Below, piece after piece: positions 6,001-9,000 of a DNA stretch of 11,394 bases. Position 1 is the first letter of the stretch. Each line of letters opens with the position of its first letter. The DNA comes from a virus (taxonomy: Duplodnaviria; Heunggongvirae; Uroviricota; Caudoviricetes), in IMG/VR virus record IMGVR_UViG_2671180275_000011; one strand, given 5' to 3'. Position numbers: made by a program.

Positions 6001-9000
6001 GAAACCCGGTAGCCATGCTGGCAGTGTGTGCATCACTCGCCGGGCCGTTGCTGTGGCTGCTTGATGTGGACAGCGGCGGATTTCATTTCATGGGCGACAG
6101 TTCCAGCGGGAAAAGCGTGGGGGCGCTGGTGGCCTGTAGCGTATGGGGAGAACCCCGCAACTTTAAACGCAACTGGAACGCCACCAGCACCGGGCTTGAA
6201 GGGCTGGCGACCATGCGGAACGATACCGCGCTGATACTGGATGAAATTGGCGAAGCCCCGGCCAGAGATATTGGCGGGCTGATTTATCAGCTTGGCAACG
6301 GAACAGGCCGCCAGCGTGGCAAGGTGTCCGGCATGGCCCGCCCGGTCAACACATGGCGCACCATGATTATTTCCACAGGGGAAATGACCGTGGGTAAACA
6401 CATGGAAAGCGGTGGTCAGCGCATCAAGGCCGGGCAGGAAATGCGGTTACTGGATATTCCGGCACAGCGGCTTTACGGGGCGTTTGACTGCCTCCACGGA
6501 ATGGCACTACCCCACAACCCCGACAACGACACAGAACGCCGTGGAGCAGGCCGGAAATTTGCCGAAACGCTGCGCGGTAATGCGGCCACCCATTACGGCC
6601 ACGCCGGGCCGGAGTTTGTGCGCTGGCTGATTTCCCGCAATGAAAGTGACACCACCAGCACCGACAGCAACGGCCAGACGCTGGCGGATATGTACGCCAT
6701 ACTGCGCGAACAATTCCCCGTAAGCACCGGGCAGGAGGCGCGCGCCGCCGCGCGTTTCACACTGTGCGCACTGGCCGGTGAAATGGCGATAACTGCCGGG
6801 ATTCTGCCGTGGAAACAGGGCGAAGCACTGGAGGCGGTGAAAGCGATGTTTGCTGCGTGGTCGGACTATCGTGGCCGGGGGCAATCGGAGGACGTGAAAA
6901 TACTCCGGGCCGTCGCCGGGTTTATCGCCCGCCATGCCTCACGCTTTGAAGGGGGCAACACATACAGCGAACCAGTAAGCAACCGCGCCGGATGGTGGCG
7001 ACCGGGGAGCAACGGCGACCGGGTTTACTGGTTTTTACCGGAAGCACTATGTGAGGCGGCCAGCGGCTACGACCTGAAACGCATAGCGGCCAGTCTTGAT
7101 GATGCTGGCGCGATTGTTGACCGCGACACGGACGGGAAACGCCGATACACAAAACGCGTTTCCGTTAACGGGGAAAAACACCGCGTTTACGCCATCGACC
7201 AGAATGCATTGTTATTCGCAATTGATGAATAATTAACAAAAATTGCGTTTTTAAAAACTGAAAAAGTGGTGGGACTGGTGGGAACTGTGGGAACCGTAAA
7301 AATAAAACATATATAAATCAGTAAATAATAAAATCACCAGTATGATTATTGTTCGTTTTTGAGTGGGAACTCTGCGGGAACTGGTGGGAACCACAGAGAA
7401 CAAAAAATAACCGCCACGGTTCCCACAAAAAGCCACCGTGGGAACTGGTGGGAACCACTGAAAGCCGCGTGGTTCTAGGCGGTTCCCACAGTTCCCACCA
7501 GTCCCACCAACTTGCACAATATTACGCACGGCAAAAAACGCACCATAAAAACCCGGAAATCCCTTACGTGGCGCTGGATGCAAGGCAATTTCAGTGTGCA
7601 AAACGGGTTAAACAGCAAAACCACACAGAATAGCGAAAAGCCCAGCAATGGCGCGGCATGTGGAGCATTTACCAGTGAATCACGAATAACGCTTTTTAAG
7701 GGCAAAAATGCACTTTTTAGCGCACAAAATCACGCGAAGCCAGACGCGGCGCGGCTTACAGCCGTGTTTATATGCCTGATTACCGTTTTCTGGCGGCAAA
7801 AAAGAACACCGAAACACACGCGCAGCCCGCGCCACACAAGGGATACAGCGAAATGAGCACATCAGAACACGCAGAAATCACGAAAAAACACCATAAAACG
7901 CACGTTTTCAGCGATTCAGAACATCAGATTTATGCATAAGTTATTCAGCCTGCCGGATGCATTGTGTGAGTTTATCCGGGCATTACCTGCACCGGATTTA
8001 CAGGAAGCGCACCAGTCCGAAACATGGCCGGAAGACAACACCACCAGCAACGGCCAGACGCTGGCGGATATGTGCGCCCCGTCTGCGGCGTGGCTGGCTG
8101 CCCGTGATGCGTATATCAGCCACGTCATGACCTGCCCGCATTGTGCTACCAGCGGCGTTAAAAAACCGCGTCATTGCGCTGAGGGTGAACGACTACGGCA
8201 GAACTACGACCACACCAGATAACCACCACACCCCGGCGATTAATTCCGGGAACAGCCGGGAGAATGCGGGAAAAGGCGGGATTAATCCGGGAATAAACGG
8301 AAATAACCGGGATTTCGTGGGACTGCACCGCCATAAGGTGGGGTGCGGTCATTATTCCGCGACGTTTTCCCCGGCAAGAGCACACGCGGCGCGGGCTGCA
8401 TGGAATTTCAGGCCATGCCAGAAATGAACTTTTTCGCCCATTGTTACCCTGAATATGGTAAAAAATGCTCACCCATTGCCGGGCCATGAACAAAATCAGC
8501 CCCATTATGCATGGCGGCCACATACCACCAGCCACATCACAGAGCGCCATTGAATGCCAGAGAGTACACCACGAGCGCCATTTTAAAAACCGTTTCAAAG
8601 CACCATAAAATCGGCTTTTAGGCATTGTTTAAGAAAGCGTGTTTTTCAGACAGGCCGACCGACTGGCAGGATATGAGAAAGGCAACGTAATCAGCGTATC
8701 CGGCACGATGCAGGTAAGCCAGTGGACCGGACAGAACGGGGAAACGCGGCAGGGTTATCAGGTCATAGCGGACAGCATAATCAGTGCACGGGCGACGCGT
8801 CCAGGCGGGAGCAGACGCAGTACCACAGGCACACAGAGCAATCAGCCACCAGCGGGAAGTTATGACCCCTGCGGTGACAATATTCCGTTCTGAGGGGGTG
8901 AACGATGGTACATGACCGCATAGCGGAAGAACTGGAGTCGAAAGGCTTTTACCGGAGAGCGGCGGCGCGATGGGCCGAAGTGATGATGCTGGTGGAGACT

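What the first reader, a model, noticed from the sequence alone, without database searches (positions are those of the whole stretch)
7266..7508. Iteron origin: direct and inverted GTGGGAAC repeats symmetric around an AT-rich core
About twelve copies of an 8-9 nt motif sit in two clusters flanking a 65-bp AT-rich segment, with inverted copies on the right-hand side. This is the architecture of an iteron-driven origin, directly downstream of the primase-helicase genes. The motif (revcomp GTTCCCAC) recalls, but differs from, the P4 type I iteron TGTTCACC, which would imply a distinct origin specificity.
Basis: partly seen in the sequence, partly recalled or inferred. Interest (0 to 1): 0.5.

Follow-up and report, generated by a model that had tools for sequence, protein, structure and literature searches.

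The report
Satellite-island replication origin with iterons
The repeats are real and are almost certainly the replication origin of a small E. coli phage-satellite-like island, read by the DNA-binding tail of the helicase encoded just upstream; this is a new example of an origin type already known from PICI and SaPI islands.

Summary
There are nine exact GTGGGAAC copies, one GCGGGAAC and two GTGGGAC, all within 7269-7507 and none elsewhere in the 11.4-kb island. They start 36 nt after the stop codon of a DUF927 helicase and include a 67-bp segment of 19% GC.

One correction: the array is not symmetric about the AT-rich segment. The layout is 3+ | AT | 3+ 1- 2+ | 3-. The two outer triplets form a perfect 30-bp inverted repeat centred about 59 bp to the right of the AT block.

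The helicase is a full-length sequence and fold homologue of SaPIbov1 Rep and SCCmec Cch, which are self-loading initiator helicases whose C-terminal winged helix reads iterons. It is not related to P4 alpha.

Homologues in 77 other genomes carry repeat arrays at the same place, with lineage-specific words. Salmonella and Klebsiella relatives are about 90% identical up to residue 510. Their last 100 residues are only 49% identical, and their iteron is TGGGGACA instead.

Across seven E. coli alleles, 0 of 94 iteron positions vary, against 16 of 194 other positions.

Verdict: a PICI/SaPI-type Rep-iteron origin, a new member of a known kind. No experiment exists for this element.

The parts
4370..5413 (+). 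Toprim-domain protein, the putative primase of the replication module; its end overlaps the helicase start by 20 nt
   Evidence: Pfam Toprim_3, E 1.4e-10. PHROG 2249 'DNA primase', E 4e-50. PGAP annotates it as a toprim domain-containing protein. The Toprim+DUF927 pair is conserved in related loci.
5394..7232 (+). DUF927 helicase of 612 aa, the putative Rep (self-loading initiator helicase)
   Evidence: Pfam DUF927, E 7e-83. PDB sequence hits 5DGK Cch (E 1e-17) and 8TCH SaPIbov1 Rep (E 1.6e-12). The AlphaFold model matches 8TCH and 5DGK over the full length, E about 1e-15.
6924..7229 (+). Helicase C-terminal domain (residues about 511-612), a predicted winged helix and the proposed iteron-reading module
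   Evidence: Pfam HTH_56 (Cch HTH) at residues 503-602, E 3.4e-4, below the gathering score. Modelled helix-helix-beta-hairpin with pLDDT mostly above 85. It resembles the winged-helix TcpK-oriT complex 5VFX. Identity to the Salmonella and Klebsiella homologues drops from about 90% to about 49% exactly here, together with the iteron switch.
7267..7296 (+). Left outer iteron triplet (GTGGGAC 7269, GTGGGAAC 7278 and 7287); left arm of the perfect 30-nt inverted repeat
   Evidence: Invariant in 7 E. coli alleles and in E. albertii and Tenebrionibacter.
7296..7362 (.). AT-rich segment (67 bp, 19% GC), the proposed DNA-unwinding element
   Evidence: The position is conserved in E. albertii, Tenebrionibacter and Brenneria. 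An analogous AT block follows the first cluster in the validated EcCICFT073 ori.
7363..7391 (+). Inner iteron triplet (GTGGGAAC 7363, GCGGGAAC 7374, GTGGGAAC 7384)
7419..7426 (-). Single inverted iteron (GTTCCCAC on the + strand)
7438..7455 (+). Iteron doublet (GTGGGAAC 7438 and 7448)
7455..7469 (+). 15-nt element CCACTGAAAGCCGCG, identical and at the same relative position in the EcCICFT073 and IHE3034 PICI origins; function unknown
   Evidence: It is not found in the RM13514 or 042 origins. In IMG/VR only the 5 CFT073-type origins carry it in an origin context.
7480..7509 (-). Right outer iteron triplet, inverted (GTTCCCAC 7482 and 7491, GTCCCAC 7501); right arm of the perfect 30-nt inverted repeat
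   Evidence: invariant across alleles

Best explanation
Positions 7267-7509 are the vegetative replication origin of an approximately 10.7-kb integrative, PICI-like island inserted between yicC and dinD.

Proposed mechanism, all inferred:
1. After the island is induced and excised, the DUF927 helicase acts as its own initiator. This helicase is a homologue of SaPI Rep and SCCmec Cch.
2. Its C-terminal winged-helix domain (residues about 511-612) recognises the twelve GTGGGAAC-type iterons. Copies within a cluster are one helical turn apart, so they lie on one face of the DNA.
3. The two outer triplets point towards each other. This fits two helicase rings assembling in opposite orientation.
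4. The 67-bp, 19% GC segment next to the left triplet melts, and the rings load onto single strands.
5. The co-transcribed, probably translationally coupled Toprim protein primes, and host polymerase extends.
6. The iteron word plus the C-terminal domain form an exchangeable specificity module, so that related islands in one cell do not cross-activate.

Shown here by computation: the repeats, their non-random clustering, their conservation, the family-wide positional conservation, the helicase's family membership, and the coupling between the C-terminal domain and the iteron word.

Inferred and not shown: binding, melting, double-ring loading and priming.
For: - Clustering. Nine exact copies against 0.41 expected, all within 231 bp starting 36 nt after the helicase stop.
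- Helicase family. Sequence homology and full-length fold homology to SaPIbov1 Rep (8TCH) and Cch (5DGK). SaPI Reps are self-loading helicases whose C-terminal winged helix binds 6-12 iterons lying immediately downstream of rep. Those iterons surround an AT-rich region, with opposite orientations on the two sides (PMC9371898).
- Published precedent. [quoted passage not shown] The validated CFT073 origin and the RM13514 origin have the same overall layout as this one.
- Family-wide conservation. In 77 loci with homologous helicases, the 400 nt after the stop carry an 8-mer repeated 4 or more times in 65%, against 2.4% of 1603 control windows. The words are lineage-specific and the arrangement is conserved.
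- Coupling to the C-terminal domain. Six Salmonella, Klebsiella and Plesiomonas homologues are 86-92% identical in the ATPase but only 48-50% identical in residues 520-612, and use TGGGGACA instead. Homologues with a C-terminal domain 80-96% identical keep GTGGGAAC. The identity break is at about residue 511.
- Family-wide partial correlation. Iteron similarity against C-terminal-domain identity, given ATPase identity, is 0.25 (0 of 2000 permutations reach it). The reverse partial correlation is 0.016.
- Concerted change. In Brenneria, 7 of the 13 copies read CC before the invariant GGGAAC core, where E. coli has GT; most of the others also differ from GT.
- Purifying selection. In 7 E. coli alleles, 0 of 94 iteron positions vary against 16 of 194 others (Fisher p = 0.0015).
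- Independence from downstream genes. The downstream genes differ between loci while the array stays attached to the helicase.
- Autonomous relatives. A 7-kb Salmonella plasmid contig whose only large gene is a fused Toprim-DUF927 protein has the same array just downstream. An 11-kb circular P. aeruginosa episome carries the same module.
Against: - There is no experimental evidence for this element or for any DUF927-type island in Proteobacteria.
- The C-terminal domain is physically adjacent to the repeats. Co-inheritance by linkage alone could produce part of the covariation.
- Mantel-type tests are liberal when sequences are related.
- The control windows are mostly coding DNA.
- The HTH_56 match is below Pfam's gathering score, and the structural model is only moderate overall (pLDDT 75; low in parts of the ATPase).
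- The island looks partly decayed: the SSB is truncated, PGAP calls PerC frameshifted, and no capsid, terS or cos was found. The origin may therefore rarely fire.
- Two relatives, pHS87b and the Nitrosoglobus plasmid, show no clear array immediately downstream of the helicase.
- The AT-rich block lies in a different place in other family members, after the last cluster, so its role as the melting site is not secure.
Confidence: 0.8

Rival explanations
1. The array is a cis-acting replication enhancer or copy-control element, like P4 crr or plasmid 'handcuffing' iterons. The helicase binds it, but initiation and melting occur elsewhere.
For: In P4, the repeat block immediately 3' of the alpha gene is crr, while ori lies 4.5 kb away. 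In other family members the AT-rich block lies outside the array.
Against: GTGGGAAC occurs nowhere else in the island, so there is no second site for the helicase to bind. PICI and SaPI origins at this position are the initiation sites (PMC6092414, PMC9371898). A 19% GC block lies inside the array.
Confidence: 0.08
2. The repeats are operators for a transcription regulator of the downstream genes, or they form a terminator or structured RNA or DNA hairpin at the end of the replication operon.
For: The perfect 30-nt inverted repeat gives a very stable single-strand fold (z = -9.4). The array lies between two gene blocks.
Against: There are no promoter-like sites in 7000-8100 and no plus-strand terminator, and no Rfam family matches there. 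Direct repeats at one-turn spacing and internal copies are not explained by a hairpin. The array follows the helicase gene and its C-terminal domain across loci whose downstream genes differ.
Confidence: 0.05
3. The array is a packaging or recombination site, either a pac- or cos-like site recognised by a helper-phage terminase or a resolution site.
For: Satellites must carry a packaging signal, and none was identified elsewhere in the island.
Against: No terS or recombinase gene lies adjacent. There is no match to the lambda or P2 cos ends, which were searched from sequences recalled from memory. The repeat word co-varies with the helicase C-terminal domain rather than with any packaging gene. 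The same array occurs in a plasmid-like contig.
Confidence: 0.03
4. The array is an inactive relic. It was an origin, but the island is degenerate and no longer replicates.
For: The SSB is truncated and PerC is annotated as frameshifted. There are no morphogenesis genes. The Tenebrionibacter homologue has a frameshifted helicase with an intact array.
Against: The helicase and primase are intact in all 32 E. coli genomes that carry the module. Iteron positions are invariant while spacers vary, which argues for continuing selection.
Confidence: 0.04

Closest known systems
SaPI (Gram-positive PICI) Rep-ori replicons, e.g. SaPIbov1 and SaPI1, and the related SCCmec Cch helicase
   Same: The initiator is homologous in sequence and over the full-length fold. 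The origin lies immediately 3' of the helicase gene, has about 12 short iterons in both orientations and includes an AT-rich block. A variable C-terminal winged helix is paired with a variable iteron word (PMC9371898).
   Different: The host is a proteobacterium. The iterons are 8-mers (GTGGGAAC) rather than penta- or hexamers. The AT block is off-centre, with 3 copies on one side and 9 on the other. The partner primase is a Toprim-domain protein. Nothing has been tested experimentally.
Gram-negative PICI origins (EcCICFT073, experimentally validated; EcCIRM13514 at the same yicC-dinD site)
   Same: The island layout matches: int, alpA, Icd-like genes with C4/isrK RNAs, rep, ori, hypothetical gene, SSB, PerC. 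The origin grammar also matches: an outer direct cluster, an AT block, mixed inner copies and an outer inverted cluster. A 15-nt element, CCACTGAAAGCCGCG, is identical to that in the CFT073 origin.
   Different: The Rep proteins of CFT073 and RM13514 are fused D5_N/DUF5906/Pox_D5 primase-helicases, unrelated in sequence to this DUF927 helicase. Their iterons are CTGTCTACC and GGTGAACA. This island has no capsid, decoration or terS genes. The module occurs in only 32 of 5426 complete E. coli genomes.
Satellite phage P4 ori/crr with the alpha primase-helicase
   Same: Octamer repeats occur in direct and inverted orientation immediately 3' of the primase-helicase gene (the P4 crr). A C-terminal DNA-binding domain reads them. 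The element is a satellite-type island with int and P4-like immunity RNAs.
   Different: There is no sequence similarity to alpha (E 0.35). TGTTCACC is absent. There is a single cluster rather than separate ori and crr. No sid, psu or delta genes were detected among the ORFs scanned.
Iteron plasmids (pPS10, RK2, R6K, F) with RepA-type winged-helix initiators
   Same: Directly repeated initiator-binding sites lie next to an AT-rich unwinding element, and specificity is set by a winged-helix domain.
   Different: Here the initiator is itself the replicative helicase (AAA+, Cch/MCM-like), not a RepA dimer or monomer that recruits DnaA and DnaB. No DnaA boxes lie in or near the array. The iterons are 8 bp rather than 17-22 bp and occur in both orientations.

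Membership tests
SaPI/PICI-type Rep-iteron origin | The origin lies immediately 3' of the rep (initiator helicase) gene | tested here: met
   The first repeat starts 36 nt after the helicase stop codon. The same position is seen in 65% of 77 homologous loci.
SaPI/PICI-type Rep-iteron origin | Six to twelve short iterons in sets on both sides of an AT-rich region, with copies in opposite orientation on the two sides | tested here: met
   There are 12 copies: 3 (+) to the left of a 67-bp, 19% GC block and 9 to the right, of which 4 are inverted. The AT block is off-centre.
SaPI/PICI-type Rep-iteron origin | The initiator is a Rep/Cch-family self-loading helicase with a C-terminal winged helix | tested here: met
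   phmmer hits to 5DGK and 8TCH. Foldseek E about 1e-15 over the full length. The C-terminal domain is modelled as a winged helix, with HTH_56 at E 3.4e-4, below Pfam's gathering score.
SaPI/PICI-type Rep-iteron origin | Iteron specificity resides in the Rep C-terminal domain, with cognate pairs | tested here: met
   Comparative evidence only. The iteron switches from GTGGGAAC to TGGGGACA together with a drop to 49% identity in residues 511-612, against about 90% identity upstream. The partial correlation is 0.25, with 0 of 2000 permutations reaching it. Linkage remains a caveat.
SaPI/PICI-type Rep-iteron origin | Rep binds and melts the origin, and rep-ori drives autonomous replication | not testable with these tools
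   This requires EMSA or footprinting and a plasmid maintenance assay.
Gram-negative PICI (island level) | int, alpA and pri/rep transcribed in one direction, with the origin after rep, at a PICI-specific attachment site | tested here: met
   Pfam integrase, AlpA, Toprim and DUF927, all on the + strand. The yicC-dinD site is listed for EcCIRM13514 in Table S1 of PMC6092414.
Gram-negative PICI (island level) | Helper-phage exploitation functions: cos or pac site or terS, capsid or redirecting genes; induction by a helper phage | tested here: inconclusive
   No capsid, decoration or terS genes were found among the ORFs scanned. No lambda- or P2-type cos end was found, using sequences recalled from memory. 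Induction cannot be tested.
P4-type ori/crr | Alpha-type primase-helicase (Toprim, D5-like SF3 helicase and C-terminal DNA-binding domain in one protein) | tested here: not met
   BLASTP against P4 alpha gives E 0.35. The Pfam hit is DUF927, not D5_N or Pox_D5. The primase and helicase are separate genes.
P4-type ori/crr | Type I iteron TGTTCACC, in two separate loci (ori and crr) | tested here: not met
   There are no TGTTCACC copies in the window, and only a single GTGGGAAC cluster.
Classical iteron plasmid origin | RepA/pi/TrfA-type initiator plus DnaA boxes, with the host DnaB loaded | tested here: not met
   No such Rep was found among the scanned ORFs. DnaA-box matches are at chance level, and none lies between 7233 and 7590.

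The most novel reading that the evidence does not exclude
The Toprim + DUF927 replicons of Proteobacteria may share a fixed origin grammar. It has twelve iterons arranged 3+ 1- 2+ | 2- 1+ 3-, at nearly constant distances from the helicase stop codon, with the word changing but the syntax kept. This grammar could be a template for assembling two opposed hexamers, which together have 12 winged helices. That would make it a bacterial counterpart of the SV40 and papillomavirus double-hexamer origins.

On this reading the E. coli version is a chimera. It keeps the left half (3+ 1- 2+). It has acquired the enterobacterial PICI scaffold: an extra outer triplet, an internal AT block, and a Rep-independent 15-nt element shared with the unrelated CFT073-type origin. 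That shared element would point to a common host or helper factor acting at PICI origins.
Probability: 0.2. Interest if true: 0.55.

Novelty: new member of a known kind. Interest (0 to 1): 0.3.

Why it matters
The finding places a rare E. coli island, present in 32 of 5426 complete genomes, in the Rep-iteron class of satellite replicons. It also shows that the SaPI/Cch-type self-loading helicase, studied so far in staphylococci, drives PICI-like islands and small episomes across Gamma- and Betaproteobacteria.

The sharp break at residue ~511, together with the iteron switch, gives a ready-made natural domain-swap experiment on how these helicases read their origins. The conserved 12-iteron syntax offers a testable model for double-ring loading.

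In practice, the helicase C-terminal domain and its iteron word could be used to type and predict the compatibility of such islands. The finding does not reveal a new kind of system.

Tried and rejected
- DNA-level search for diverged alleles. Searches with the origin, with the origin plus its flanks, and with the primase and helicase genes found only the same 32 E. coli genomes, all at least 96% identical. Comparison across greater distances therefore needed protein-level searches.
- Known RNA families. No Rfam family at gathering score lies in 7233-7930.
- Promoter and terminator scan of 7000-8100. No promoter-like site and no plus-strand terminator.
- DnaA boxes. Matches are at chance level and none lies in the array.
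- Kinship with P4 alpha and with the EcCICFT073 Pri-Rep. Rejected.
- Lambda and P2 cos ends, searched from sequences recalled from memory. No convincing match.
- The shared 15-mer as a widespread origin element. Of 70 IMG/VR hits, only 5 are CFT073-type origins; the rest are coding or chance matches. It is absent from the RM13514 and 042 origins, so it remains unexplained.
- A simple recognition code. Enterobacterial and Pseudomonas helicases that use TGGGGACA-like words do not have similar C-terminal domains (29-37% identity).
- Small replicons pHS87b and pTAO100. Neither shows a clear array directly after the helicase gene. pTAO100 also carries RepM.
- ORFs overlapping the repeats (7251-7601 on the minus strand, 7349-7633 on the plus strand). 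Treated as spurious, because no annotation calls a CDS there in seven genomes.
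Full report
WHAT IS THERE

The window is an E. coli chromosomal island. It is 100% identical to strain 2012EL-2448 and lies between yicC and dinD. All of its genes are on the + strand:
- an integrase (1-1272);
- an AlpA-type HTH protein (2491-2697);
- Ash/Icd-like ORFs carrying C4, isrK and int-alpA RNA motifs;
- a Toprim-domain protein (4370-5413);
- a 612-aa DUF927 protein (5394-7232);
- the repeat region;
- a hypothetical ORF, an SSB fragment, PerC, a Mor-family protein and a tRNA-like element.

Exact GTGGGAAC occurs nine times, all in 7278-7498. The expectation is 0.41, and 0 of 200 shuffles reach nine. With GCGGGAAC (7374) and the one-base-deletion copies GTGGGAC (7269) and GTCCCAC (7501) there are twelve copies, spaced 9-11 bp within clusters.

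The layout is 3+ | 67-bp AT block (7296-7362, 19% GC) | 3+, 1-, 2+ | 3-. The two outer triplets form a perfect 30-nt inverted repeat, 7267-7296 / 7480-7509. The dyad centre (7388) is not the AT block (centre 7329). 'Symmetric around an AT-rich core' is therefore the one inaccurate part of the description.

THE PROTEIN NEXT DOOR

- The DUF927 protein matches two solved structures by sequence: SCCmec Cch (5DGK, E 1e-17) and SaPIbov1 Rep (8TCH, E 1.6e-12).
- An AlphaFold model was built from 26 homologues. Its mean pLDDT is 75, and the C-terminal 130 residues are mostly above 85.
- The model aligns over its full length to the same two structures at E about 1e-15. The C-terminal domain on its own resembles a winged-helix protein bound to oriT DNA, 5VFX.
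- Pfam gives a sub-threshold HTH_56 (Cch HTH) match at residues 503-602.
- The protein shows no significant similarity to P4 alpha (E 0.35) or to the validated EcCICFT073 Pri-Rep, which is a D5_N/DUF5906/Pox_D5 protein.
- The upstream Toprim protein matches phage DNA-primase PHROGs at E 4e-50.

WHAT IS KNOWN ABOUT SUCH PROTEINS

SaPI Reps are self-loading helicases. Their C-terminal winged helix recognises 6-12 iterons lying immediately downstream of rep. An AT-rich region sits roughly in the middle, and at least two iterons on each side point in opposite directions. Binding and melting do not need ATP (PMC9371898).

COMPARATIVE TESTS

(a) Within the species. The module is in 32 of 5426 complete E. 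coli genomes, all at least 96% identical. In seven alleles, 0 of 94 iteron positions vary against 16 of 194 other intergenic positions (p = 0.0015).

(b) Across the family. I took 77 genome loci encoding homologues at 40-99% identity.
- The 400 nt after the helicase stop carry a non-trivial 8-mer repeated four or more times in 65% of loci, against 2.4% of 1603 control windows. In 41 of 77 loci this window is the most repetitive in the locus.
- The word changes by lineage. Examples are GTGGGAAC, CCGGGAAC(A), ATGGAAGACA, (A/T)GGGGACA, GGGTGACA, GGGGCGAC, CGTTACAG, GGTAACA and TGTGACAA.

(c) Syntax.
- Many distant members share one arrangement: 3+ at about +23, 1- at about +71, 2+ at about +96, 2- at about +128, 1+ at about +160 and 3- at about +190 after the stop codon. 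That is twelve copies with dyad symmetry, and the AT-rich DNA follows the last cluster.
- The enterobacterial lineage (this window, E. albertii, Tenebrionibacter, Brenneria) keeps 3+ 1- 2+ ... 3-. It adds an extra outer triplet and an internal AT block.

(d) Specificity coupling.
- Six Salmonella, Klebsiella and Plesiomonas homologues are 86-92% identical to this helicase in the ATPase. In residues 520-612 they are only 48-50% identical, and their origins use TGGGGACA.
- Among themselves, their C-terminal domains are 78-88% identical and the word is the same.
- Homologues whose C-terminal domain is 80-96% identical to this one keep GTGGGAAC.
- The identity break falls at about residue 511.
- In Brenneria, 7 of the 13 copies read CC before the invariant GGGAAC core, where E. 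coli has GT; most of the others also differ from GT.
- Family-wide, iteron similarity correlates with C-terminal-domain identity after controlling for ATPase identity (partial r = 0.25; 0 of 2000 permutations reach it). The reverse partial correlation is 0.016.

(e) Independence from downstream genes. What follows the array differs between loci: Mor, HTH proteins, a second integrase, or nothing conserved. The Toprim-DUF927-array order is kept.

(f) Autonomous relatives.
- A 7-kb Salmonella plasmid contig has a fused Toprim-DUF927 protein as its only large gene, and carries the canonical array directly downstream.
- An 11-kb circular P. aeruginosa episome carries int, an HTH protein, Toprim, DUF927, ogr/delta and a P2-family capsid gene. 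A 10.2-kb record deposited as Pseudomonas phage vB_Pae_U10 encodes a helicase match with the same identity, coverage and score.

BEST EXPLANATION

The array is the island's replication origin, and the adjacent helicase is its sequence-specific, self-loading initiator. The helicase reads the iterons with its C-terminal winged helix. Copies one turn apart put the bound domains on one face of the DNA. The convergent outer triplets suit two rings loaded in opposite orientation. The 19% GC block is the likely first site of melting. The Toprim protein primes.

Everything after 'the helicase is a Rep/Cch homologue and the repeats co-vary with its C-terminal domain' is inference from the SaPI and PICI literature. 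I put this explanation at about 0.8.

CAVEATS

- No experiment exists for this element.
- The C-terminal domain is physically adjacent to the array, so linkage contributes to the covariation.
- Mantel-type tests are liberal with related sequences.
- The control windows are mostly coding DNA.
- The AT block sits in different places in different lineages.
- The island looks partly decayed: the SSB is truncated, PGAP calls PerC frameshifted, and there are no morphogenesis genes.

RIVALS

- A crr-like enhancer or copy-control site rather than the start site (0.08). This is weakened because there is no second GTGGGAAC cluster in the island.
- An operator, terminator or hairpin (0.05). There are no promoter or terminator signals and no Rfam hit, and a hairpin does not explain the direct repeats or the tracking of the helicase C-terminal domain.
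- A packaging or recombination site (0.03).
- An inactive relic (0.04). Intact replication genes and invariant iterons argue against this.

COMPARISON WITH KNOWN SYSTEMS

It works like, and by the tests I could run belongs to, the SaPI/PICI Rep-iteron origin class.

At the island level it parallels EcCICFT073 gene for gene up to PerC, and it uses the attachment site of EcCIRM13514. Its replication module comes from a different protein family, and it lacks capsid genes.

It is not a P4-type origin. There is no alpha homologue, no TGTTCACC and no split into ori and crr.

It is not a classical iteron-plasmid origin either, having no RepA-type initiator and no DnaA boxes.

AN UNEXPLAINED DETAIL

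The 15-mer CCACTGAAAGCCGCG (7455-7469) sits just before the right outer triplet. It is identical, and at the same relative position, in the EcCICFT073 and IHE3034 origins, whose Rep and iterons are unrelated. It is absent from the RM13514 and 042 origins. In IMG/VR it occurs in an origin context only in CFT073-type elements. In this lineage it occupies the place where the canonical family syntax has its '2- 1+' copies. This may be a recombination scar between PICI origins, or a site that does not depend on Rep.

VERDICT

This is a new member of a known kind, of modest interest (0.3). Its most useful products are a natural domain-swap design for origin specificity and a conserved 12-iteron syntax that could be tested as a double-hexamer loading template.

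Noticed in passing
window 7455-7469; L088 6431-6445: The 15-nt element CCACTGAAAGCCGCG is identical, and at the same relative position (just before the last inverted iteron cluster), in this origin and in the validated EcCICFT073 and IHE3034 PICI origins. The Rep proteins and iterons of those islands are unrelated to the ones here. It is partly conserved in Tenebrionibacter and Brenneria and absent from the RM13514 and 042 origins.
   Followed up: partly
L027, L026, L048, L023, L076, L022, L093 (first ~220 nt after the helicase stop): Distant family members share a fixed origin syntax: 3+ 1- 2+ 2- 1+ 3-. That is 12 copies with dyad symmetry, at nearly constant distances from the stop codon, although the iteron words differ. 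The AT-rich DNA follows the last cluster rather than lying inside the array.
   Followed up: partly
L090 7600-7850 (EcCIRM13514, same yicC-dinD attachment site): This published PICI has nine copies of GGTGAACA/TGTTCACC, the P4 type I iteron, directly after a P4-alpha-like 'DNA primase family protein'. Two islands that use one attachment site therefore carry unrelated replication modules.
   Followed up: partly
window 10081-10162 and 10030-10070: A tRNA-like element with a GTA (Tyr) anticodon. Rfam tRNA scores 35 bits against a gathering score of 29, and PGAP annotates tRNA-Tyr, but ARAGORN finds nothing. An 80%-identical 41-nt copy of its 3' end lies 105 nt upstream. It may be a satellite-borne tRNA or the remnant of an earlier tRNA attachment site.
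   Followed up: partly
window 1279-1344, 2854-2933, 2982-3069, 3472-3559: Rfam finds int-alpA RNA, isrK and two C4 antisense RNA copies. The last three lie inside ORFs annotated as Ash/Icd-like. This looks like a P4/P1-type RNA immunity module, duplicated.
   Followed up: no
L001 4720-4743 (just upstream of the window) and window 10258-10280: GTGTACAT-containing direct repeats lie near both ends of the island, upstream of int and near dinD. They are probably integrase arm-type binding sites in attL and attR. The published att core GAGCAGATTCAA matches with one mismatch only at the yicC end.
   Followed up: partly
window 8639-8893 and 8905-9201: PGAP annotates the SSB as N-terminally truncated and PerC as frameshifted. 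The 8905-9201 ORF nevertheless gives a nearly full-length PerC Pfam match (E 3e-35). No capsid, decoration or terS genes follow, unlike EcCICFT073. The right half of the island appears reduced.
   Followed up: partly
L010 3992-5840 (Tenebrionibacter intestinalis): The helicase homologue (86% identity) is split by a frameshift into two ORFs, but the downstream GTGGGAAC array and the 30-nt inverted repeat are intact.
   Followed up: no
L002 (STEC308 and five similar genomes), downstream of window ~7560: A 173-bp insertion relative to the window lies in the non-coding stretch between the origin and the next ORF. Some alleles (L003, L007) have an annotated ORF in this 7510-7930 gap, whereas the window has none annotated.
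   Followed up: no
L095 (pHS87b, NZ_KR106191); PP003922 'phage vB_Pae_U10': pHS87b is an 11-kb circular P. aeruginosa episome carrying int, HTH, Toprim, DUF927, ogr/delta and a P2-family capsid gene. It looks like a P4/PICI-type satellite caught as an episome. A 10.2-kb record deposited as Pseudomonas phage vB_Pae_U10 gives the same 38.0% identity over the same helicase residues (29-606) and the same bit score, so the two may be the same element; their DNA was not compared. No obvious iteron array lies directly after the pHS87b helicase gene.
   Followed up: partly
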